Shown here: positions 51,930 through 61,468 of the stretch, piece by piece
Layout: the number at the start of each line of letters is the position of its first letter
Position numbering within the stretch: position 1 is the first letter of the stretch
Origin: Micromonospora sp.
Lineage (GTDB): Bacteria > Actinomycetota > Actinomycetes > Mycobacteriales > Micromonosporaceae
Assembly: GCA_036563645.1 (NCBI GenBank)
Contig: DATCMA010000056.1
Span: 9,898 to 73,897, forward strand
Length of the DNA: 64,000 bases
Direction: 5' to 3'
The notes under the pieces: model-generated
Databases searched by the model: none
What the model saw: only the letters and a program-made list of their open reading frames with translations
What the model was told of the DNA's origin: nothing
Position numbers and translations under genes: made by a program

Positions 51930-53300
51930 GTGTCCCAGCAGTCCTCGCTAACGGCCGTACAGCGCCACGCTCAGGCATTGCGCGATTCCGGGAACCTGCC
52001 CGCGGCCCGTGCCTACCTCGAGCGCGCACTCGAATCCGCCCGGCCCGCCTTCGGTGAGGATCACCCGGAGGTACTCGCCGCCGCGCACCAGTTGGCGAAG
52101 CTGCATCGGGAAGCTGACGATCTCATGGCGGCCCGCCGCACCCTCGAACAGGCGATCGCCGCCGGTGAGCGCCGCCGGGGTTTCTCCGACCCCCTGATGG
52201 TGTCGCTCTGCTACGAACTGGGCGCGGTCGCTGAGGAGCTCGGCAACCGGCACGAGGCCCGCAAGAACTTCACGCGGGTGACCACCTACGGCCCCGCCGT
52301 CCTCGGCGACGACCACTGGCAGGTCCGAGCGGCGCGGGAATACCTCGGTGAGGCGCGGACTGAGGCCGCCCCACGGCCGTCGACGCCGCCGGAGACGGCG
52401 CAGTCCGGAACGTCGGTGGCCCCGCCGCCGGTGAGCTCGACGTCCGCGCTGGAGGAGCCCACCACCGTCCTGCCGATCGCGTCACCCGTGGCCACCCCAC
52501 CCGCCGATGACACGACGCCCGCCCGCGACGCGGCGCCCACGGTTCCCCTCCAGCGGGAGGCCAGCCCGGCCACCGAGTCGACCGCGGCTGCTCCCCAGAC
52601 CGCCCCGACGACAACGCCGACGGTCGCCCCGCACGCCCCGGCTGATCAGGGCGCTGCGCAGCGGGGGCCCGAGGTCACGCAGGCCGCCTCCCACCACGCC
52701 CCATCGCCGGCGCCGATGGAGGGCGAATCCCACCCGCAGGTGGGCGTGGAGCCGGTGTCGCCGCGGCTCACGTACCCGGTGAGCACCGACACGGCGGAGC
52801 CGGCCCCCTACCCGAGCTTCCAGTACCCCGTCGTCGCGCCGCAGCCGGCGCCGCCGACCCCACCGGCTCCGCCCGCGTCCCGCGGGCGCGGGCTGACCAT
52901 CGCCGTGGCGGTCGTCGCGGGTATCGCCGCGGTGGCCGCGACGTTCGCCGGGATCGCGGTGCTCCTCAAGGACGGGGACGAGGCGCCACCGAGCCCTCCC
53001 GGGCCCGTGTTGGCTGGGGATCCCCCCACCGACCTCCAGCTCCGCGATGACGGATCCACGATCACGCTGACCTGGAAGGACCCCTCCCCCGGCACCGTGC
53101 CGTTCATCGTGGCCGGCGGCCGGGCAGGGCAGTCCTTGAGCGCGATGGCCACCGTCAACGCGGGTGAGACCAGCTACACCATCAACGGGCTCAGTCCGCG
53201 GCTGGACTACTGCTTCACCGTGCTCGCCGTGTACTCCGCGGACCGCTATGCGACATCTGGTCAGGTGTGCACCAATCGGTCGGCTCGTAACCCCGACTGA
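51930..53300 (+). CDS. TPR - Pro-rich linker - TM - fibronectin type III domain protein
   Basis: N-terminal TPR-like helices (..ARAYLERALESARPAFGEDHPEVLAAAHQLAKLH..). TM LTIAVAVVAGIAAVAATFAGIAVLL. C-terminal FN3 (..LTWKDPSPG..YTINGLSPRLDYCFTV..). Confidence 0.8.
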   Translation: MSQQSSLTAVQRHAQALRDSGNLPAARAYLERALESARPAFGEDHPEVLAAAHQLAKLHREADDLMAARRTLEQAIAAGERRRGFSDPLMVSLCYELGAVAEELGNRHEARKNFTRVTTYGPAVLGDDHWQVRAAREYLGEARTEAAPRPSTPPETAQSGTSVAPPPVSSTSALEEPTTVLPIASPVATPPADDTTPARDAAPTVPLQREASPATESTAAAPQTAPTTTPTVAPHAPADQGAAQRGPEVTQAASHHAPSPAPMEGESHPQVGVEPVSPRLTYPVSTDTAEPAPYPSFQYPVVAPQPAPPTPPAPPASRGRGLTIAVAVVAGIAAVAATFAGIAVLLKDGDEAPPSPPGPVLAGDPPTDLQLRDDGSTITLTWKDPSPGTVPFIVAGGRAGQSLSAMATVNAGETSYTINGLSPRLDYCFTVLAVYSADRYATSGQVCTNRSARNPD

Positions 53301-53472
53301 GGACGAAATTCGTATCCCTATATCCCTTTCCAACACCGTCCACTAAGAGGTCAATTTCGACACAGAGTCGTCCATAGGTCGCGGTTGTCGCTGTCCACAC
53401 TCGCCCTGGCCACCCCGGCCCGTTGAAGGCAGGCCATATCATGGCTCCCGGTTTTTCGGCCGGGTACCGGCC

Positions 53473-56133
53473 ATGCCCAACAATCGCAGTCCCGAGATGG
53501 GTGGGAGGCGGCCGGCTGTGGTCAACCCAGGCAACGGCACCACAACCAGCACGACCAACGGCCAGGGCAAGCGGCGGCTCCGCAAGCGCGGCTGGCTCGT
53601 GACCGGTGGCACGGTCACCGCCCTGGTCGCCGCGATGGGATTGACTGTTCTCGGACTTGGCGCCACCGATAACGCCGTAGCCAGCTTTGACGCGAGCTCC
53701 TGGCTGTGGAGCGCGGTGAAGAGTGAGATGGCCCGGGTCAATGGCGTCACCGCCCGGGTCGACACCCGGCTGCGCGTGCCCAACGCCCACGGGCACGCCA
53801 TGCAGGTGAGCCAGACCGACCGGTTCCTCATCCTGCGCGATCTGTCCACCGGGCGGATCAGCTCGCTCGACCTCGCCACCCTGCAATTCACCGCCACGAT
53901 GCAGAGCACCGCGGGGCTCGGCGTCACGGTCGCTCTCCACGATGACGCGGCGTTCATCGTCGACGCGGTCCAGGGCGTTGTACGGCAGCTCGATCCGCGC
54001 ACGCTCAATCCGGTCGGAGAAGCCCTGCGGTTCCCACCCGGTATCACGGGCGGATTCTTCGACGGCACGGGCAAGCTCTGGGTGGCGGTGCCGAGTGAGG
54101 GCACGGTCACCGCGATCGCGCCGGCGTCGACCTCCTCGGAGAACACCGGGAGCCCGACGTCGGTTCGCACGGTCACGGTCGCTCCCCCTAGCAACGACCT
54201 CGTGCTGTCCGCATTGGACGACGGTGTCGCCGTGCTCAACCGCACATCGAACGCGCTCACCATCGTCCGCGATGAGGACCAACGCGACGTCCCCCTGTCC
54301 ATGGCGGGCCCCGGCGTCCTGCCGCCGCGGACCAACGGGGACCGCATCCCCGTCACCGTGCCCGACAACCGGGAGATCCTCGTCGTCGACGACAGCACGG
54401 TGCAGGAGCTGTCGGTACCCGGGGAAGGGACGCAGCTCAGCGCTGCCGTGGCCTGGGCGGGGCGCATCTACTGCGCTGACGACGCGACGGGCACCGTGTA
54501 CGCCTTCGACGAGACCGGCGCGCTGGTCGCGACGATCACCGTCCCGGGCGCCAACGGCCCGCTGGAGCTGGAGGTCCGCGAAAACCGCCTGTTCATCAAC
54601 GCGCCGAACTCGTCCACCGCACGCGTGATCGACGACCAGCACACGGTGCGGTCGGTCGACAAGTACGCCAACGACGTCCTCGGCGGGGAGACACCGCAGA
54701 CGCCTCCGCCACCGCCTCCGCCGAAGGAGCCTCCGGCCGACAAGCCGGGTGCACCCAGCAGCGTCACCGCCTCGGCCGGCGATGCGCGCGCCCGGGTGAG
54801 CTGGGGGCCGGCCCCGGCGAACGGCGCGCCGATTCTCCGGTACGTCATCCAGGGCGCGGGGAAGACCTTCGAGGTTGGCGCGAATCAACGCTCGCTGGAG
54901 ATCACTGGGCTGACCAACGGCGAGACCTACCGCTTCTCGGTCCACGCGGTCAACGCCAAGGGCGCGGGCCCGGCCCGGTGGAGCAACCCGGTGGTGCCCA
55001 CGGCTGAGGTGCCGGATCCGCCGGAGCGCGTGACGGCGACGGCACGCCCGGACGGCTCGGTGCAGGTGACGTGGCCGGCCGCGAACGGCCAGGGCAACCA
55101 CATCGTCAAGTACGCCGTGACCGCGGTCTCGGCCAAGGGGACCACGCCGGTGGGCGAGACGCCCAGCACGGAGCTGGTGATCAGCCCGGGAACGGTGGAG
55201 TACGGCAGGCAGTACGCCTTCACGGTCGTCTCCATCACCGACAAAGGCGCCGGCTCCAAGGAGTCCCCGCTGAGCAACACGGTGGTGCCGTTCACGGTCC
55301 CGAGCGCACCGCGCCAGCTGCGCGCCACCACCGTGGCCTCCGAACCGGGCGCGATCCGGGTGACGTGGGCGGCGGCGGCCGACAATGGACGGCCGATCCT
55401 CCGGTACGTGGTTGAGGCGGCCGGCCGGCGCGTCGAGGTCACCGACGATACCCGCGTCACGCTCACCGGCCTCGGCGACGGTAAAACGGTGACGGTCCGG
55501 GTCCACGCGGTCAACGAGGCGGGAGACGGCCCCGTCGCCACCGCCACCGCGCGGACCGTGGCGAAGCCGCAGGTCACCATCACCGGGGTCACGAGCACCT
55601 ACGGATCGGTGACGGTGAGCTTCACCGTGGACTCTGGTGGTGGCCAGGCCGAGTGCAGCGCCTCGATCTCCGGCGCGACGACGGCGAAGGGCAACTGCTC
55701 CAAGCTGACCGTCAGCGGCCTCAAGGCCAGCAGCAGTTACACGATCACGGTCAGCGCCACGAACGCCGCGGGCACGGCGACCGCCTCGCGCAAGGTGAGC
55801 ACGAGCACGTTGGTCGGGGTCGCGACCTGCGTCAACGGCTCCTCCGGCGACACGGCCACGTACTGCGACGCGGACGTGGATGGCCGCAACGGCAACGAGA
55901 TCTTCTCCGTGCCTCGGCAGGACAACAGCAAGCAGGTCGGATGGGCACGGCCTGGCACGAAGCTGACGGCCTACTGCAAGATCCGGGGCGAGGAGATCTA
56001 CGCCTACATCTACAACAACCACAAGCGCAGCACGTGGTGGCTGGAAGTGGAGTGGACGACGAAGCCCGCTTACATCCCGTGGGCGTGGCTCAACTTCGAC
56101 CCCGACGACATTGACGTCGTGCCCACCTGCTGA
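53473..56133 (+). CDS. membrane-anchored multi-FN3 protein with N-terminal beta-rich (propeller-like) region and Cys-containing C-terminal domain
   Basis: TM WLVTGGTVTALVAAMGLTVLGL. At least four FN3 repeats (..RVSWGPAPANGAPILRYVI..GETYRFSVHAVNAKGAG.. and similar). Poly-Pro hinge. Confidence 0.85.
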   Translation: MPNNRSPEMGGRRPAVVNPGNGTTTSTTNGQGKRRLRKRGWLVTGGTVTALVAAMGLTVLGLGATDNAVASFDASSWLWSAVKSEMARVNGVTARVDTRLRVPNAHGHAMQVSQTDRFLILRDLSTGRISSLDLATLQFTATMQSTAGLGVTVALHDDAAFIVDAVQGVVRQLDPRTLNPVGEALRFPPGITGGFFDGTGKLWVAVPSEGTVTAIAPASTSSENTGSPTSVRTVTVAPPSNDLVLSALDDGVAVLNRTSNALTIVRDEDQRDVPLSMAGPGVLPPRTNGDRIPVTVPDNREILVVDDSTVQELSVPGEGTQLSAAVAWAGRIYCADDATGTVYAFDETGALVATITVPGANGPLELEVRENRLFINAPNSSTARVIDDQHTVRSVDKYANDVLGGETPQTPPPPPPPKEPPADKPGAPSSVTASAGDARARVSWGPAPANGAPILRYVIQGAGKTFEVGANQRSLEITGLTNGETYRFSVHAVNAKGAGPARWSNPVVPTAEVPDPPERVTATARPDGSVQVTWPAANGQGNHIVKYAVTAVSAKGTTPVGETPSTELVISPGTVEYGRQYAFTVVSITDKGAGSKESPLSNTVVPFTVPSAPRQLRATTVASEPGAIRVTWAAAADNGRPILRYVVEAAGRRVEVTDDTRVTLTGLGDGKTVTVRVHAVNEAGDGPVATATARTVAKPQVTITGVTSTYGSVTVSFTVDSGGGQAECSASISGATTAKGNCSKLTVSGLKASSSYTITVSATNAAGTATASRKVSTSTLVGVATCVNGSSGDTATYCDADVDGRNGNEIFSVPRQDNSKQVGWARPGTKLTAYCKIRGEEIYAYIYNNHKRSTWWLEVEWTTKPAYIPWAWLNFDPDDIDVVPTC

Positions 56134-56159
56134 CCGCACGACCGCCGAGGAGCGTGACC

Positions 56160-57155
56160 GTGAATCGCCAAGCGCCCCTCACCCCACAACAGGTGCAGGG
56201 ATTCGCCGCGCTCGCGGGGCGGCTTGCCGACACCATCTCCACGGTGGTGCTCGGCAAGCCGCACGTCGTGCGGCTGGCGTTGACCGCGCTCTTCGCGCAG
56301 GGGCACGTCCTGCTCGAGGACGTGCCCGGCGTCGGCAAGACCACGCTCGCGCGCGCGATCGCCACGACCGTCCGGGGGCAGTGCCGGCGCATTCAGTTCA
56401 CCCCCGACCTGCTGCCCAGTGACGTCTCCGGGGTGACGATCTTCAATCAGGCCACCCGTGCCTTCGAGTTCCACCCGGGGCCGGTCTTCGCCAACATCGT
56501 CATCGCTGACGAGATCAACCGCGCGTCGCCGAAGACGCAGGCCGCGCTGCTGGAGGTCATGGAGGAACGGCACGTCACCGTGGACGGCGTGCGCCACCCG
56601 GTGCCGCAGCCGTTCCTCGTGGTGGCGACGCAGAACCCGGTCGAGATGGACGGCACCTACCGGCTTCCTGAGGCCCAGCTCGACCGTTTCCTCGTCCGGC
56701 TGTCGATGGGCTACCCCGACGAGCACGCCGAGATCGAGGTGCTGCGCGGCGCGACCGTGCGCTCTCCGGAGGCGCTGCCCGTGGTCACGGATACCGCGAC
56801 GATCGGAGAGATGGTGCGCATGGCCCAGCGGGTGCACATCGCCGATCCGCTGTATGCGTACATGGTCCGCCTCGCCGCCGCCACCCGTCACCACCCGCAT
56901 GTCCGCGTCGGAGTCAGCCCGCGCGGGGTGATCGCGTTGACGCGGGCGGCCTGCGCGTACGCCCTGATGCACGGGCGCGGCTACGTCCTCCCCGAAGACA
57001 TCAAGGAGCTCGTGGAGCCGGTCTTCGCGCACCGGGTGCTGCTCTCCCCCGACGCCCAACTCCGCGGGATCAGCGCCGCGGACGTGGTGCGGGAGGCGGT
57101 CCAGTCGGTGCCGGTGCCGCTGCCTACCGGGCAATCCGCCCCGGTGGGTGCGTAA
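56160..57155 (+). CDS. moxR: MoxR-family AAA+ ATPase
   Basis: Walker A EDVPGVGKTTLA, Walker B IVIADEINRASPKTQAALLEVMEE. GTG 56160 is 7 nt after GAGGAG. The track start 56154 is too close to the SD. Confidence 0.95.
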   Translation: MNRQAPLTPQQVQGFAALAGRLADTISTVVLGKPHVVRLALTALFAQGHVLLEDVPGVGKTTLARAIATTVRGQCRRIQFTPDLLPSDVSGVTIFNQATRAFEFHPGPVFANIVIADEINRASPKTQAALLEVMEERHVTVDGVRHPVPQPFLVVATQNPVEMDGTYRLPEAQLDRFLVRLSMGYPDEHAEIEVLRGATVRSPEALPVVTDTATIGEMVRMAQRVHIADPLYAYMVRLAAATRHHPHVRVGVSPRGVIALTRAACAYALMHGRGYVLPEDIKELVEPVFAHRVLLSPDAQLRGISAADVVREAVQSVPVPLPTGQSAPVGA

Positions 57156-57166
57156 CCGCGACGACC

Positions 57167-58333
57167 ATGATCCTCACGTCACGCGGTTGTGGGGTGCTCA
57201 TCGGCGGTGCCGCGCTGCTCGCGGCCGGTTTCGCCGGTGGCTACCCCGAGCTGTCGGTCCTTGGCGCGGTCGGGGTGGTCGCGCTGCTGTGCGCTGGCGT
57301 CTACGCGGCGTGGTGGCCGCGCCTCGAGGTGTCGCGCCGGGTGGATCCGGACCGGGTCGAGCGGGGCGAGGACGCCACGATGGAGCTGACCGTTCGGGCA
57401 CGGGGCCGGTTCCGCCCCGCCACCCTGATCGCCAAGGACCGCTGTGGCGATCGCGAGCTGTCCGTACCGCTGCTGCGCGTGCGGTCAGGCCGGGTCACCG
57501 AGGTGACGTACCCGGTGCCGACTCAGCGGCGCGGCGTCGTGCCGATCGGTCCCCTGCGGATCACCCGCCGGGACGCGCTCGGCCTCATCACCCTCACTCG
57601 CCGCTACGGGCCGACCGCGCAGGTCCGGGTGCACCCGCGCGTTCACCCGCTCGTGGCGGTCCCCGCCGGGGTGGCCCGGAGCCTGGACGGGCGGTTCGAC
57701 CGCGTCCCCCACGGGACGATCACGTTCGACACGTTGCGCGAGTACGTCATCGGCGACGAGCTGCGCAAGGTCCACTGGCGGACCAGCGCCCGCATCGGGG
57801 AATTGATGGTCCGCGAGGACGTCGACACGAGCCTGCCGCGCCTCGTGGTGCTCCTCGACAACCGCGCGAGCGCCTACCCGGACCGCGTCGACGGCGTGGC
57901 GGAGACGTTCGAATCGGCGTGTGAGGCGGCGGCGTCGATCGTCGTGGCCGCGGTCCGCGAGGACCTTCCCGTGGCCTTGATGATCGTCGACGACGATCCT
58001 CCGATCGACGGCGACCACCTGGACCGGCTCACCGAGGTGCGGCTCCGTGACCGCCCCGGGGTCGATCCCCAGGAGCCGCTGCGTACCGCGGCGATGCGGC
58101 TGCGCCAGCAGCGCGCCGGCGACACCCTGATCTTCCTCACCGGGCCGGGCGCGCGCGACGACCTCGGCCACATTGGCGCGCTCCGCGGGCCGTACGCGAC
58201 GGTGCTGGTCGGGGTGCTGCACGGCGACGCCGCTGAGGCGGCCCACGCCCGCACGGTCGACCCGATGTTGATCATCAACGCCCGAGACGGCGCGGACTTC
58301 GCCGCCGAGTGGAATGGGGTGCCGGCGTGGTGA
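57167..58333 (+). CDS. DUF58 domain protein (MoxR partner, vWA-like)
   Basis: ..FDTLREYVIGDELRKVHWRTSARIGELMVRE.. then ..LVVLLDNR.. Confidence 0.9.
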   Translation: MILTSRGCGVLIGGAALLAAGFAGGYPELSVLGAVGVVALLCAGVYAAWWPRLEVSRRVDPDRVERGEDATMELTVRARGRFRPATLIAKDRCGDRELSVPLLRVRSGRVTEVTYPVPTQRRGVVPIGPLRITRRDALGLITLTRRYGPTAQVRVHPRVHPLVAVPAGVARSLDGRFDRVPHGTITFDTLREYVIGDELRKVHWRTSARIGELMVREDVDTSLPRLVVLLDNRASAYPDRVDGVAETFESACEAAASIVVAAVREDLPVALMIVDDDPPIDGDHLDRLTEVRLRDRPGVDPQEPLRTAAMRLRQQRAGDTLIFLTGPGARDDLGHIGALRGPYATVLVGVLHGDAAEAAHARTVDPMLIINARDGADFAAEWNGVPAW

Positions 58334-60600
58334 GGCGCGTCCTGCTCATCCCACTGATCCTGAGCGGCATGATCGCGCTGGTCGGGGTGTCGCTCGGACA
58401 GATCTACGCGGGCCCGCTGCTCACCCAGCTCGTCGCCGGCGCCGCGCTCGGCTCGGTCGGCCTCAGCGTCGTGGCCCGGCGGCTGCCCAACTGGCTGGTG
58501 GCGCCCGTGTCGGCGGCCGCGCTCGTCGGCTACACGACGGTCGCGATGGACGTGGCGGCGCGGCGGGCGGAGATGCCGGGCCCGATCACTCAGGTGTTCC
58601 TCGACGCCGCCCGCAACGGGATCCCCCGGCTGCTCACCGCCATGATCCCGGTCGAGCCGTTGCCGGACACGGTGGTAGTCCCCGTCGCCGCGACCTGGTT
58701 GGCTGGCTTCGCCGCGGCCGAGGTGGCGCTGCGCGCCGGCCGGCTGTTGCTCGGCTACGTTCCGCCGACCCTGCTCTACGCCGGCGCGCTGTACGTGATG
58801 GGTCCGAACGCGGAGACGACCCTGTGGATTCCGCTGGCGTTCGCCGCCCTGGCCATCGCCGGGCTGGCGCTCACCGCCCGGCCACCGGCTCGGTCCGCTG
58901 ACGTCGAGGAGCCGCTCCGTGGGGCGCTGCGCGTTCGGATCGTCACCGGCCACCTCATCGGCCTCACCGTGGTGATCGCCCTGGCGGCCGGACTCGCGCC
59001 CATGGTCAGCGCTCGGGTCGAGGTGGAGCCCGTCGATCCCCGTCGCTACGTGCAGCCACCTCAGGTCGACAGCCTCGACGAGAGTCCACTCATTCGGATC
59101 TCCGGATGGGCGCTGAACCCCGAGCAGAAGCTACTCGACATCACCACCGAGGTCGTCTCCGAGACCTCCGATGAACCGCAGGATGGTGCCGCGCTGCCGG
59201 ATGAGGCGGCGGACTCCGGTGAGGCCCCGAGCGTGGGCGCGGGGATCCGGATTCGGTTGGCCGTCCTCCACGACTACGACGGGGTGACCTGGAGGGTCGG
59301 CGGCACCTACCGCAACGCGGGTCGGGTCCTCCCGTCGGTCACGCCCCATCCCGACGCCACCGTGGACACCGTTCGCCAGGAGATCACCATAGGCGAGTTG
59401 ACCGGTCGGCTGCTGCCGGCGGTGGCCACCCCGCAGCGCATCGAGGGCGCCCGCGTGGCGTATGACCCGGACAGCGGCACGTTGATCCGCCCGGAAGGGC
59501 TGACCCCTGGCTTGCGGTACGCGGTGACCTCGGTGCGGGAGCGTCCGGACTACACCCAGTTGACCGCGGCCAACGTGCCCGCCGGGGACGAGGTGGCGCG
59601 GGTGCTCCACGTGGCGGATGGGGTGCCCGAGCAGATGCGACGCCTCGCCGACAAAATCTCCACGGAGAACGGCTCCCCGTACCAGCGCGCGTTGGCGATC
59701 GAGCAGTTCTTGTCGGAGCACTACCGCTTCGACGCCGACTCGCCGAGCGGCCACGCGTATCCCAACCTCGCGTTCTTCCTCTTTGGGCCACGCCACGCCG
59801 GTGGCCAGCGGGGCACCTCGGAGCAGTTCGCCGCGGCGTTCGCGGTGCTCGGGCGGCTCGTCGGGCTGCCCACCCGCGTCGTCGTCGGCTTTCGCCCCGC
59901 CCGGGGCACCGGCCCGGTGGTGGCCGGGGACGCCGTGGCCTGGCCTGAGGTGCTCTTCGCTGGACTCGGATGGGTGCCGTTCGATCCTCTCCCCAAGCCG
60001 AACAGCGAGCCCCGGCCGGTCGAGGAGGAATTCAAGCCCTCGCCGGAGCCGACCACGCCACCACCCAGCCCGGAACCGACCCCCACGATCGACCCCACCG
60101 CGTCCTCAGGTCCGGAGTTGGTCCTCGCCCCATCGGGGAATGGCCCCACGGGCGCCGTCCTCGCCGGGGTGGGCGTCGGCACGCTGATCGTGCTCCTCGC
60201 CGCAGCGCTTGTCACGGTGCTCGTGTTGCGCCGGTCGCTGCGGCGGCGTCGGCTCACGACCGGGCCGCCAGCGGCGCGGGTCGTCGGCGCGTGGCTCGAG
60301 GTCATGGACGCCTTGCGGCTGGCGGGGCACCCGGCCGCGGCCCACCTGTCCGCGAGCGAGGTAGCCGCCCACGCCCGCCAGGCCCCCGCGCCAGGGGTCC
60401 GTCCCGCGGTGCCGCCGATCGACGAGCTCGCCGAGCTGGTCAACCGCATCACGTTCGGGTCAGGGGCCGCCGAGGAGAGCCAGGCGCGCGCGGCGGTCGC
60501 CCAGGCTCAGGAGTTCACGGAGCGCTTACGCGCCGCGCGACCGTGGTGGCGTCGTCTGCTGTGGGCGGTGCACCTCGGCCCGCTCCGCTGGCACCGGTAG
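58309..60600 (+). CDS. TgpA-like polytopic transglutaminase-fold protein with substituted catalytic Cys and His
   Basis: N-terminal multi-TM (DUF3488-like) region. Core ..GQRGTSEQFAAAFAVLGRLVGLPTRVVVGF..GDAVAWPEVLFAGLGWVPFDP.. Start ATG 58309 or GTG 58327/58330 (GTGA overlap). Confidence 0.9.
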   Translation: MEWGAGVVRRVLLIPLILSGMIALVGVSLGQIYAGPLLTQLVAGAALGSVGLSVVARRLPNWLVAPVSAAALVGYTTVAMDVAARRAEMPGPITQVFLDAARNGIPRLLTAMIPVEPLPDTVVVPVAATWLAGFAAAEVALRAGRLLLGYVPPTLLYAGALYVMGPNAETTLWIPLAFAALAIAGLALTARPPARSADVEEPLRGALRVRIVTGHLIGLTVVIALAAGLAPMVSARVEVEPVDPRRYVQPPQVDSLDESPLIRISGWALNPEQKLLDITTEVVSETSDEPQDGAALPDEAADSGEAPSVGAGIRIRLAVLHDYDGVTWRVGGTYRNAGRVLPSVTPHPDATVDTVRQEITIGELTGRLLPAVATPQRIEGARVAYDPDSGTLIRPEGLTPGLRYAVTSVRERPDYTQLTAANVPAGDEVARVLHVADGVPEQMRRLADKISTENGSPYQRALAIEQFLSEHYRFDADSPSGHAYPNLAFFLFGPRHAGGQRGTSEQFAAAFAVLGRLVGLPTRVVVGFRPARGTGPVVAGDAVAWPEVLFAGLGWVPFDPLPKPNSEPRPVEEEFKPSPEPTTPPPSPEPTPTIDPTASSGPELVLAPSGNGPTGAVLAGVGVGTLIVLLAAALVTVLVLRRSLRRRRLTTGPPAARVVGAWLEVMDALRLAGHPAAAHLSASEVAAHARQAPAPGVRPAVPPIDELAELVNRITFGSGAAEESQARAAVAQAQEFTERLRAARPWWRRLLWAVHLGPLRWHR

Positions 60601-60757
60601 CGCCTGGGGGTCGATTGCGCGCCGATCTGGGGATGTGCCCCAGGACTACCCGAGAGTAATCTCGCGAACGGACCCAGGATGTGATCACCGAGGACGCCTC
60701 GGTGATGACGTCCGGTGCGCGTCCTCGGGACGGGGCGGCACAGCGTGGAGGCAGCAC

Positions 60758-61468
60758 ATGACCTCGAATCGCGAGCGCGCGGAGTCGCTCAGCGACATGC
60801 TCGGAGGTCGGCGTGGTGCGATCGACGCGACGCTCCCCGCGGTCGCGTTCGGTGCCGGCTGGTGGGCGAGCGGCCACTCCATCATGGGTGGTGGCATCGC
60901 CGCGGTCCTCGTCGCCGCCGGGGTCGCCGGGTGGCGCCTGCGTCGGGGCGACCGCCCGGGCTCGGTGCTGATTGGGCTCCTCGTCGTCTGTCTCGGTGTG
61001 CTCATCGCGCTGCGCACGGGCCGAGCCAGCGACTTCTTCCTCCTCCAGCTCGCGGCGAACATGACCAGCGCGCTGGCCTGGTTGGTCAGCATCGTGATTC
61101 GATGGCCGCTACTCGGCGTCGTCGTCGGGCTCGTGCTGGGTCAAGGCCGCCGGTGGCGGCGTGATCCCGCGCTGCTGCGCGCCTATGGGCGGGCGAGCTG
61201 GGTGTGGGTCGCACAATACCTCATCCGACTCGCCGTCTTCATCCCGCTCTATCTCGCCGATCACGTCGTCGGCCTGACCATCGCGCGCGCGGCGCTCACC
61301 TGGCCACTGGTCGCCACCTGCATCGCGGTGAGCTGGTGGGTCCTCCAACGCAGCCTGCCCGCGGGACATCCTGGCCTCCGCTCGCCCGTGACCACCCCAC
61401 CCACAGCCGCGGCGTCTTCATCGACCACTGAGGGCAGTGACTCCCCACACCCCACGGATGGCAGGTAA
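60758..61468 (+). CDS. DUF3159 membrane protein
   Basis: ..LGGRRGAIDATLPAVAFGAGW..RASDFFLLQLAANMTSALAWLVSIVIRWPLLGVV.. GGAGG 7 nt before ATG 60758. Confidence 0.8.
   Translation: MTSNRERAESLSDMLGGRRGAIDATLPAVAFGAGWWASGHSIMGGGIAAVLVAAGVAGWRLRRGDRPGSVLIGLLVVCLGVLIALRTGRASDFFLLQLAANMTSALAWLVSIVIRWPLLGVVVGLVLGQGRRWRRDPALLRAYGRASWVWVAQYLIRLAVFIPLYLADHVVGLTIARAALTWPLVATCIAVSWWVLQRSLPAGHPGLRSPVTTPPTAAASSSTTEGSDSPHPTDGR

What the first reader, a model, noticed from the sequence alone, without database searches (positions are those of the whole stretch)
58309..60600. Transglutaminase-fold partner of MoxR/DUF58 has Cys to Ser and His to Val at the catalytic triad
TgpA-like proteins use a papain-like Cys-His-Asp triad (established for the transglutaminase-like superfamily). 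Typical motifs are G-x-C-E-x-F/Y-A.. and ..H-A-W-x-E-V..G-W-x-x-x-D-P. This protein reads ..RGTSEQFAAAFAVLGR.. and ..GDAVAWPEVLFAGLGWVPFDP.. Cys is replaced by Ser and His by Val, while the Asp is kept. The rest of the core is well conserved, so this is not random decay. It may be a pseudo-enzyme (scaffold or substrate-binding partner for the MoxR chaperone) or have altered chemistry.
Basis: partly seen in the sequence, partly recalled or inferred. Interest (0 to 1): 0.6.

Follow-up and report, generated by a model that had tools for sequence, protein, structure and literature searches.

The report
Dead transglutaminase in conserved surface-protein operon
This membrane protein keeps the transglutaminase fold but has lost its catalytic residues, as has a whole old actinobacterial clade that is nearly always encoded next to a surface propeller/FN3 protein, and that clade includes the "transglutaminase" of the bifidobacterial PFNA operon.

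Summary
In the 763-aa ORF at 58309-60600, Ser504, Val543 and Asp559 align with the Cys, His and Asp of P. aeruginosa TgpA (PDB 6g49). An AlphaFold model (pLDDT 89) matches that structure best.

This is a clade trait, not decay. About 270 relatives at 30-81% identity almost all lack the Cys. The nucleophile position is mostly Ser but also Ala, Pro, Thr, Asp, Gly or Glu. The His position varies freely (Leu, Tyr, Phe, Val, Ile, Thr). The rest of the core is nearly invariant.

This genome and 10 other actinobacterial genomes also carry a canonical Cys-His-Asp/Glu TgpA with its own MoxR and DUF58. Trees of the transglutaminase domain and of MoxR each separate the two operon types by one branch.

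The dead type sits beside a membrane-anchored beta-propeller/FN3 surface protein: 71 of 76 loci, plus 5/5 Bifidobacterium, 4/4 in a random phylum sample and one Occultella paralogue. The canonical type never does (0/29).

The bifidobacterial PFNA "tgm", published as a presumed cysteine protease in an operon "found only in bifidobacteria", belongs to the dead clade.

Best reading: a pseudo-enzyme that links the surface protein outside to MoxR-DUF58 inside. Earlier notes of this scan report Cys-to-Ser TgpA-like proteins in other phyla.

The parts
51930..53300 (+). Bitopic membrane protein: cytoplasmic TPR domain, Pro/Ala-rich linker, one TM helix, one extracytoplasmic FN3 domain. It is the first gene of the Micromonosporaceae version of the module.
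   Evidence: Pfam TPR_12 and fn3. The translation shows a TM segment before the FN3 domain. A homologue lies upstream in the Micromonosporaceae loci.
53473..56133 (+). Surface partner protein: N-terminal TM anchor, beta-propeller (about residues 75-400), four FN3 domains and a Cys-containing C-terminal domain. The database version has 871 aa, so the true start may be 45 nt later.
   Evidence: Pfam fn3 x4. The AF2 model of residues 40-430 has pLDDT 88. Its best Foldseek matches are propellers: NirF, cd1 nitrite reductase, an archaeal S-layer YVTN propeller and BamB. A homologue lies directly upstream of MoxR in 71 of 76 loci. The 871-aa form is P0275.
56154..57155 (+). MoxR-type AAA+ ATPase (MRP subfamily), cytoplasmic.
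   Evidence: Pfam AAA_3 at 211 bits and AAA_lid_2. MoxRs of dead-TG operons and of canonical-TG operons separate on one branch, SH-aLRT 93.
57167..58333 (+). DUF58 protein with an N-terminal two-helix membrane hairpin and a cytoplasmic DUF58 domain. It overlaps the next gene by 25 nt.
   Evidence: Pfam DUF58, translation.
58309..60600 (+). TgpA-like pseudo-transglutaminase. About seven N-terminal TM helices, an extracytoplasmic beta-sandwich plus transglutaminase-fold domain (about residues 235-615), an eighth TM helix, and a cytoplasmic DUF4129 tail.
   Evidence: Translation, Pfam TgpA_N, Transglut_core and DUF4129, AF2 model with pLDDT 89, Foldseek top hit 6g49/6g4h.
59641..59988 (+). Transglut_core domain, residues 445-560.
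   Evidence: alignment to 6g49.
59818..59820 (+). Ser504 (TCG) at the position of the catalytic Cys. It is the first residue of helix 504-517.
   Evidence: Column counts in A1: S93 A18 P5 T3 V2 D1 C1.
59935..59937 (+). Val543 (GTG) at the position of the catalytic His, inside strand 542-550.
   Evidence: Column counts: L32 Y27 F17 V13 H9 T8 I4.
59983..59985 (+). Asp559 (GAT) at the position of the catalytic Asp.
   Evidence: Column counts: D85 Y12 N8 E5 S4.
60157..60243 (+). Eighth TM helix (about residues 617-645), followed by an Arg-rich stretch, which places the C-terminus in the cytoplasm.
   Evidence: The topology follows from the positive-inside rule, so it is an inference.
60289..60504 (+). 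DUF4129 domain (residues 661-732), cytoplasmic tail.
   Evidence: Pfam at 24.7 bits, just under the 24.8 cut-off. G660, A661, W662, L669, A729 and R749 are nearly invariant in the clade.

Best explanation
The gene encodes a catalytically dead paralogue of the membrane transglutaminase TgpA. Its outward-facing transglutaminase-fold domain has lost the Cys and His of the triad but keeps the fold and the surrounding core residues.

It is one subunit of an old four-gene module of Actinomycetota: a membrane-anchored beta-propeller/FN3 surface protein, a MoxR AAA+ ATPase, a DUF58 protein and the pseudo-TgpA. This module runs in parallel with a canonical MoxR-DUF58-TgpA operon elsewhere in the same genome.

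The proposed mechanism is inferred, not shown. The pseudo-enzyme would act as a transmembrane scaffold or binding subunit. Outside, its dead domain would hold the propeller/FN3 protein or a peptide ligand. Inside, its DUF4129 tail would contact DUF58 and MoxR. ATP-driven remodelling in the cytoplasm would thereby be coupled to assembly, display or signalling of the surface protein. No transamidation or thiol proteolysis would occur.
For: Shown:
- The triad positions are Ser, Val and Asp by alignment to a solved TgpA.
- The fold is kept: AF2 pLDDT 89, and Foldseek to 6g49 gives E 1e-11 and target TM-score 0.68-0.70.
- The loss is conserved. All 121 of the closest homologues scored (of 123) have Ser. 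Among the top 150 cluster representatives at 50% identity, the nucleophile is Ser, Ala, Thr, Pro, Gly, Val, Asp or Glu, and only a few are Cys.
- Of 80 genome loci, 79 lack Cys.
- Flanking residues G502, E505, Q506, F507, A508, R523, G527, W545, E547, G554 and W555 are at least 90% conserved or invariant, so the domain is under purifying selection.
- The residues seen at position 504 (Ser, Thr, Asp, Pro, Gly, Ala) are typical of helix N-termini, and 504 starts a helix in the model. This fits structural rather than catalytic constraint.
- This genome also has a canonical operon with a Cys-His-Asp TgpA. So do 10 of 10 other actinobacterial genomes tested.
- Dead and canonical forms separate on one branch in the transglutaminase tree (SH-aLRT 88, 82 rows) and in the MoxR tree (SH-aLRT 93).
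- The surface partner lies directly upstream of MoxR in 71 of 76 dead-type loci, and elsewhere in the locus in 3 more. It is also there in 5/5 Bifidobacterium and in one further Occultella paralogue, and in 4/4 dead-type loci of a random phylum sample. Canonical loci show it in 0 of 13 and 0 of 16.
- The partner stays linked even where the gene order changed (L072, L082, L256), which argues for functional coupling.

Inferred: the topology, from hydrophobic segments, the positive-inside rule and the experimentally periplasmic TgpA domain (PMC3507681).
Against: - No biochemical test exists for any member, so loss of activity is inferred from sequence.
- Ser is kept in about three quarters of the clade, and Asp in about 70%. 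That could reflect a residual function for Ser.
- A few members, including the closest relative L004, have His at the second position (Ser-His-Asp).
- No physical contact between the pseudo-enzyme and the propeller/FN3 protein, or between DUF4129 and DUF58/MoxR, has been shown or modelled here.
- Two Nocardiopsis loci lack the partner within 10 kb.
- The association is effectively one evolutionary event, a clade trait, so the counts are not independent observations.
Confidence: 0.7

Rival explanations
1. Altered chemistry. Ser504 is a working nucleophile, as in a Ser/Asp or Ser/other-base hydrolase or acyltransferase, so the protein is still an enzyme with a new mechanism.
For: Ser is the majority residue (93 of 123 in A1). 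Asp559 is kept in 85 of 123. A clade-specific His482 is present in 96 of 123. Some members read Ser-His-Asp.
Against: Position 504 is Ala, Pro, Thr, Val, Asp, Gly or Glu in subclades that keep the same operon and partner. The His position is mostly hydrophobic. His482 is not coupled to Ser504: His is kept when 504 is Ala, Pro, Thr or Val, and Ser is kept when 482 is Ser or Asn. Outside Micromonosporaceae the Asp position is often Tyr, Asn, His, Ser, Phe or Gln.
Confidence: 0.08
2. Regulator of the active paralogue. The dead TgpA pairs with, or competes with, the canonical TgpA of the same cell and tunes its activity, as many pseudo-enzymes do for their active relatives.
For: A canonical Cys-His-Asp/Glu TgpA co-exists with the dead one in this genome and in 10 of 10 other actinobacterial genomes tested.
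Against: Each type has its own MoxR and DUF58, and these diverged together with it. Three of five Bifidobacterium genomes have the dead type but no canonical TgpA-like paralogue at the sensitivity used. The specific linked partner is the surface protein, not the paralogue.
Confidence: 0.12
3. Artefact or decay: a misaligned motif, a sequencing error or a pseudogene.
For: None beyond the unusual residues.
Against: The frame is intact at 763 aa. The identical protein is on record (P0005). The same state is seen in hundreds of relatives with an almost invariant core. The alignment to 6g49 has high posterior probability at all three positions.
Confidence: 0.01

Closest known systems
TgpA (PA2873) with PA2875 (MoxR) and PA2874 (DUF58) of Pseudomonas aeruginosa; periplasmic domain PDB 6g49/6g4h
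   Same: The architecture is the same: a polytopic N-terminus, an extracytoplasmic transglutaminase-fold domain, a further TM helix and a DUF4129 tail. The operon order MoxR-DUF58-TgpA is the same. TgpA is the best sequence match and the best structural match.
   Different: TgpA has the Cys-His-Asp triad and shows transglutaminase activity in vitro (PMC3507681). The window protein has Ser-Val-Asp. It belongs to a separate clade and has an extra surface-protein gene upstream. The true counterpart of TgpA in this genome is the paralogue on contig C19.
PFNA cluster of Bifidobacterium (pkb2, fn3, aaa-atp, duf58, tgm)
   Same: The core order is the same: FN3 surface protein, MoxR, DUF58, TgpA-like protein. 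The Bifidobacterium Tgm also lacks the triad (Ser, then Thr or Gln, then Tyr or His) in 5 of 5 species examined. It falls on the dead side of the tree.
   Different: PFNA Tgm forms a distinct subclade with the motif G-D-S/D-E-Q-Y-A rather than G-T-S-E-Q-F-A. Its partner is a protein of about 2000 aa with Big_9, cadherin-like and FN3 domains, not a propeller-FN3 protein. A Ser/Thr kinase gene precedes it, and none was found upstream in the window. [quoted passage not shown] Neither statement fits the data here.
Inactive transglutaminase-fold proteins of eukaryotes (band 4.2/EPB42, Rad4/XPC, fission-yeast Cyk3)
   Same: The transglutaminase fold is kept while the catalytic residues are lost, and the domain is used for binding or scaffolding (PMC10318531, PMC3386208).
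   Different: These are unrelated lineages and contexts. None is a bacterial membrane protein coupled to MoxR and DUF58.
MoxR-vWA-beta-propeller ternary systems (Kaur et al. 2020, PMC7159879; Pfam bpMoxR PF20030)
   Same: A MoxR ATPase is combined with a vWA-like partner and a beta-propeller protein. The window MoxR scores 37 bits on bpMoxR, above the cut-off of 27.
   Different: That paper never mentions DUF58 or TgpA and mentions transglutaminase-like peptidases only once, in passing. Here the propeller is extracytoplasmic and fused to FN3 domains. The MoxR matches AAA_3 far better, at 211 bits. I do not file the module there.

Membership tests
Transglutaminase-like superfamily (Pfam PF01841) | Profile match above the gathering threshold over the whole domain | tested here: met
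   64.8 bits against a cut-off of 23, model positions 2-108 of 108.
Transglutaminase-like superfamily (Pfam PF01841) | Papain-like transglutaminase fold | tested here: met
   AF2 pLDDT 89. Foldseek top hits 6g49/6g4h with E 1e-11 and target TM-score 0.68-0.70.
Transglutaminase-like superfamily (Pfam PF01841) | Cys-His-Asp/Glu catalytic triad (needed for membership as an enzyme) | tested here: not met
   Ser504, Val543 and Asp559 align with the Cys, His and Asp of TgpA. The same loss is seen across the clade.
TgpA-like membrane proteins (TgpA_N/DUF3488 + Transglut_core + DUF4129) | Domain architecture and membrane topology | tested here: met
   Pfam finds TgpA_N (only its C-terminal part, 237-331 of 333), Transglut_core and DUF4129 (24.7 bits against 24.8). 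The model shows 7 TM helices, an ectodomain, one more TM helix and a helical tail. The side of the membrane is inferred.
TgpA-like membrane proteins (TgpA_N/DUF3488 + Transglut_core + DUF4129) | Encoded after MoxR and DUF58 | tested here: met
   MoxR at 56154-57155 and DUF58 at 57167-58333, overlapping the TG gene by 25 nt.
TgpA-like membrane proteins (TgpA_N/DUF3488 + Transglut_core + DUF4129) | Transglutaminase activity of the ectodomain | not testable with these tools
   Predicted to be absent from the missing Cys and His. This needs an enzyme assay.
PFNA-type cluster (Bifidobacterium) | Gene order: FN3 protein, MoxR, DUF58, Tgm | tested here: met
   Window genes at 53473-60600. Bifidobacterium loci L217-L221.
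PFNA-type cluster (Bifidobacterium) | Ser/Thr kinase pkb2 as first gene | tested here: not met
   No Pkinase domain among ORFs of at least 150 aa at 37-53 kb of the window. A kinase is present in Bifidobacterium L217.
PFNA-type cluster (Bifidobacterium) | Tgm in the same subclade as bifidobacterial Tgm | tested here: not met
   Both lie on the dead side of the tree. The window protein is in the G-T-S-E-Q-F-A main clade. Bifidobacterium Tgm groups with other G-D-S/D-E-Q-Y-A proteins.
MoxR-vWA-beta-propeller ternary conflict systems | bpMoxR-type ATPase, classical vWA protein, cytoplasmic propeller and effector domains | tested here: inconclusive
   bpMoxR scores 37 bits against 211 bits for AAA_3. 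The propeller is extracytoplasmic. DUF58 stands in place of a classical vWA protein. The paper does not cover DUF58/TgpA operons.

The most novel reading that the evidence does not exclude
The four genes form an undescribed envelope machine found across Actinomycetota. A cytoplasmic MoxR ATPase would act through DUF58 and a catalytically dead TgpA scaffold to fold, anchor, display or signal through a dedicated propeller/FN3 (or giant FN3/Ig) surface protein. The bifidobacterial PFNA operon, interpreted so far as a genus-specific host-cytokine sensor with a cysteine-protease Tgm, would then be one host-adapted version of this general machine. The Cys-to-Ser TgpA modules that this scan noted beside pilus or adhesin genes in other phyla may follow the same logic.
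Probability: 0.4. Interest if true: 0.7.

Novelty: new variant of a known kind. Interest (0 to 1): 0.55.

Why it matters
MoxR-DUF58-TgpA operons are very common and have no known mechanism. A natural paralogue pair in one genome, one active-looking and one dead, each with its own ATPase, separates what needs catalysis from what needs only the scaffold.

The dead type comes with an obvious candidate client, the linked surface protein. That makes the long-standing question of what MoxR and DUF58 act on directly testable.

The result also corrects two published statements about the bifidobacterial PFNA operon. Its Tgm lacks the catalytic triad. Its fn3-MoxR-DUF58-tgm core is not confined to bifidobacteria but belongs to a family spread across Actinomycetota, including soil actinomycetes. 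This weakens a purely host-immune reading of that operon.

Tried and rejected
- The search for related loci with the single protein returned only 3 loci. An alignment query was needed.
- I tried to separate dead from canonical proteins in a phylum sample by E-value against the clade profile. This failed. Canonical Cys-His-Glu proteins of other classes score 1e-100 or better, and this genome's own canonical paralogue scores 1e-47. I therefore fetched 20 loci and read their residues. The 121/201 tally mixes both types and includes four genomes flagged unpublished (G016, G063, G103, G135). No claim here rests on it, and no sequence was taken from those four.
- I tested whether the clade-specific His482 could be a replacement base for Ser504. 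There is no coupling between the two columns.
- I considered filing the module under the MoxR-vWA-beta-propeller conflict systems. The evidence does not support that.
- NCBIfam has no model for the TG protein, DUF58 or the FN3 protein.
- The downstream DUF3159 gene (60635-61468) is not a conserved neighbour, so it is not part of the module.
Distances around Ser504 could not be measured.
- A literature search for DUF58, MoxR and Streptomyces found no study of this module.
Full report
**What is there.**
The window carries five co-directional genes:
- 51930-53300: a protein with a cytoplasmic TPR domain, one TM helix and one FN3 domain.
- 53473-56133: a protein with a TM anchor, a large N-terminal domain, four FN3 domains and a C-terminal domain.
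- 56154-57155: a MoxR AAA+ ATPase (AAA_3, 211 bits).
- 57167-58333: a DUF58 protein.
- 58309-60600: a 763-aa TgpA-like protein with TgpA_N, Transglut_core (64.8 bits, full model) and DUF4129.

The organism belongs to or near Micromonosporaceae. The best matches are Micromonospora, Phytohabitans and Plantactinospora at 58-81% identity.

**Check of the observation.**
A phmmer alignment to the solved periplasmic domain of P. aeruginosa TgpA (6g49) gives three clear correspondences. Ser504 lies under the Cys of G-F-C-A-H-Y. Val543 lies under the His of D-A-H-A-W. Asp559 lies under the Asp of V-D-P. Posterior probability is high at each position. The codons are TCG, GTG and GAT. No alternative register restores a Cys or a His.

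**The fold is kept.**
An AlphaFold2 model built on a 123-sequence alignment (A1) has mean pLDDT 89 and pTM 0.76. It shows about seven N-terminal TM helices, a beta-rich domain followed by the transglutaminase core, an eighth TM helix and a helical tail. Foldseek against the PDB returns the two TgpA entries first, with E 1e-11 and target TM-score 0.68-0.70. Ser504 is the first residue of helix 504-517. Val543 lies in strand 542-550.

By the positive-inside rule, the transglutaminase domain is outside the membrane and DUF4129 is inside. An Arg pair precedes TM1, Arg-rich loops follow TM2 and TM6, and an Arg-rich stretch follows TM8. The TgpA domain is experimentally periplasmic (PMC3507681). This topology is an inference.

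**A clade trait, not decay.**
All 121 of the closest homologues scored (of 123) have Ser at the first position. The second position is Tyr, Phe, Leu, Val, Ser or His. The exhaustive representative search found 14,581 hits, 712 of them at E 1e-30 or better. In its top 150 (32-58% identity) the nucleophile position is mostly Ser, then Ala, Thr, Pro, Gly, Val, Asp or Glu. The His position is Leu, Phe, Tyr, Val, Ile, Thr, Met and others. The Asp position is Asp, Tyr, Asn, Ser, His or Glu. Cys-His-Glu/Asp appears almost only in a few giant proteins with several transglutaminase domains.

In alignment A1 the three columns read as follows:

| Position | Residue counts |
|---|---|
| 504 | S93 A18 P5 T3 V2 D1 C1 |
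| 543 | L32 Y27 F17 V13 H9 T8 I4 |
| 559 | D85 Y12 N8 E5 S4 |

By contrast, G502, E505, Q506, F507, A508, R523, G527, W545, E547, G554 and W555 are invariant or nearly so. The domain is therefore under strong purifying selection, but the triad is not.

The residues tolerated at 504 are those favoured at helix N-termini. This fits a structural role there. His482 is specific to this clade, but it shows no coupling with Ser504.

**Two parallel operons.**
The window's genome has a second MoxR-DUF58-TgpA operon on contig C19, with an intact triad (G-F-C-Q-Q-Y-A, L-H-A-W-T-E-V, W-V-P-F-D-P) and no FN3 gene upstream. Ten other actinobacterial genomes that carry the dead type each also carry a canonical Cys-His-Asp/Glu paralogue. 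These are Micromonospora, Streptomyces, Lentzea, Nocardioides, Phycicoccus, Actinomadura, Nonomuraea, Parafrankia, Occultella and a Microthrixaceae MAG.

A maximum-likelihood tree of the ectodomain has 82 rows, 52 dead and 30 canonical. One branch separates the two states (SH-aLRT 88). A smaller 73-row tree gave 75. A tree of the linked MoxR proteins makes the same single split (SH-aLRT 93). So whole operons diverged, not just the last gene. These are quick searches without bootstraps and without a root. They are compatible with a single old loss but do not prove one.

**The linked surface protein.**
A profile search of one genome per species returned 80 loci with 10-kb flanks. They span Micromonosporaceae, Glycomycetaceae, Thermomonosporaceae, Streptosporangiaceae, Nocardiopsidaceae, Streptomycetaceae, Pseudonocardiaceae, Nocardioidaceae, Intrasporangiaceae, Ruaniaceae, Cellulomonadaceae, Frankiaceae and Microthrixaceae. 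Seventy-nine of the 80 lack the Cys.

With these 80, the three loci and the window, 76 loci had enough upstream sequence to judge. In 71 of them a homologue of the N-terminal domain of the FN3 protein lies directly upstream of MoxR. In three more it lies elsewhere in the locus. Two Nocardiopsis loci have none.

Canonical operons have no such gene: 0 of 13. In a separate sample of 20 loci drawn across the phylum, 16 were canonical and none had an FN3 or propeller gene. The other four were dead (Glu-Ser-Asp, Gly-Glu-Asp, Asp-His-Asn, Asp-His-Asp), and all four had a giant FN3 protein directly upstream of MoxR. One further dead paralogue, in Occultella (L255), also has a giant FN3 gene there.

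The conserved N-terminal domain of the partner is a beta-propeller that follows a TM anchor. Its AF2 model has pLDDT 88, and the best matches are NirF, cd1 nitrite reductase, an archaeal S-layer YVTN propeller and BamB. The association follows the clade, so it counts as roughly one event rather than many. It does persist where the gene order was rearranged (L072, L082, L256).

**Link to the literature.**
The order FN3 protein, MoxR, DUF58, transglutaminase is the core of the PFNA cluster of Bifidobacterium (PMC8430577, PMC6803598). I located Bifidobacterium genomes with a 16S probe sequence and searched five of them with the clade profile. Each has the cluster, and in B. moukalabense the preceding kinase was confirmed with Pfam. 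Each Tgm reads Ser, then Thr or Gln, then Tyr or His at the triad positions. Two of the five genomes also have a canonical Cys-His-Asp paralogue.

The PFNA papers describe tgm as "presumably a cysteine protease". PMC6803598 does not use the word cysteine at all. [quoted passage not shown] The data here show two things instead. The Tgm is degenerate. The fn3-MoxR-DUF58-tgm core belongs to a family spread across Actinomycetota.

Bifidobacterial Tgm forms its own subclade together with proteins from other actinobacterial families. That subclade has the motif G-D-S/D-E-Q-Y-A and giant Ig/FN3 partners. The window protein is in the main G-T-S-E-Q-F-A subclade, with propeller-FN3 partners.

I found no paper that describes the loss of the triad in bacterial TgpA-like proteins. 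Inactive transglutaminase folds are known in eukaryotes, such as EPB42, Rad4 and Cyk3 (PMC10318531, PMC3386208).

**Mechanism.**
Shown: the dead triad, the kept fold, the separate clade with its own MoxR, and the linked surface protein.

Inferred: the ectodomain is a binding module for the propeller/FN3 protein or for a peptide ligand. The cytoplasmic DUF4129 tail couples it to DUF58 and MoxR. The module would then assemble, display or signal through the surface protein without covalent chemistry. I put about 0.85 on "not a thiol transglutaminase or protease" and about 0.5 on the scaffold-for-the-partner mechanism.

The rivals are a serine enzyme (0.08), a regulator of the canonical paralogue (0.12) and an artefact (0.01).

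**Earlier notes of this scan.**
A first-reader note on the same stretch (e1-3865820) pointed to the FN3 genes. I tested that and it holds. Four follow-up notes on other genomes report Cys-to-Ser or otherwise dead TgpA-like proteins: SAR202 Chloroflexota (e1-691002), a Clostridia pilus operon (e1-3920948), a multi-phylum pairing with a giant vWA protein (e1-780180) and marine Group II archaea (e1-1236497). I did not test them. They suggest that dead TgpA domains paired with surface proteins recur more widely.

**Verdict.**
Val is incidental. Ser is the commonest of several non-catalytic residues at the nucleophile position. The novelty lies in recognising a clade-wide dead TgpA with a dedicated surface partner, and in tying it to the PFNA operon. 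I class it as a new variant of a known kind, with interest 0.55.

Noticed in passing
whole genome G000 (window = C7:9898-73897): The assembly is only 2.84 Mb in 68 contigs at about 90% estimated completeness. Its proteins are closest to Micromonosporaceae, whose genomes are usually 6-10 Mb (for example G006 at 7.1 Mb). This may be a reduced-genome relative or an incomplete bin.
   Followed up: no
P0183, P0207, P0220, P0222, P0255: These are giant proteins of 2559-3251 aa with three or four transglutaminase domains. In four of the five the first domains read Ser, Gly or Ser at the nucleophile followed by His-Asp (or Ser-Ser-Asp), and the later ones read Cys-His-Glu/Asp. Dead and live domains therefore sit in one chain. 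P0255 has only Cys-His-Glu domains.
   Followed up: no
L258 (Nonomuraea, second dead paralogue, Thr-Leu-Tyr): A propeller-FN3 gene is followed directly by DUF58 and the dead TG gene, with no MoxR gene between them. This is a module copy that may borrow an ATPase from elsewhere.
   Followed up: no
L256 (Lentzea, Ala-His-Asp paralogue); L072 and L082: The propeller gene lies downstream of the TG gene, or on the other strand, instead of upstream of MoxR. Linkage is kept despite the rearrangement.
   Followed up: partly
L054, L060 (Nocardiopsis): These are dead-type operons (Ser-His-Asn, Ser-Tyr-His) with no propeller or FN3 gene within 10 kb. They are the only such loci among the 76 that could be judged.
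   Followed up: no
L048 (Micromonospora sp. M12): Every gene of the module is split into several frames. This points to a frameshift-rich assembly or a decayed copy.
   Followed up: no
L040:14631-16208: A second, partial copy of the C-terminal half of the TG core lies about 2.4 kb downstream of the full gene.
   Followed up: no
window 53301-53472: A 170-nt gap separates the TPR-FN3 gene from the propeller-FN3 gene, whereas the next three junctions are tight or overlapping. An internal promoter may lie here.
   Followed up: no
window 58309 vs 58369: The start codon is ambiguous. One database record begins at GTG 58309 (763 aa). Another begins at the Met 20 codons later. Homologues align from residues 4-10, which favours the longer form.
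   Followed up: partly
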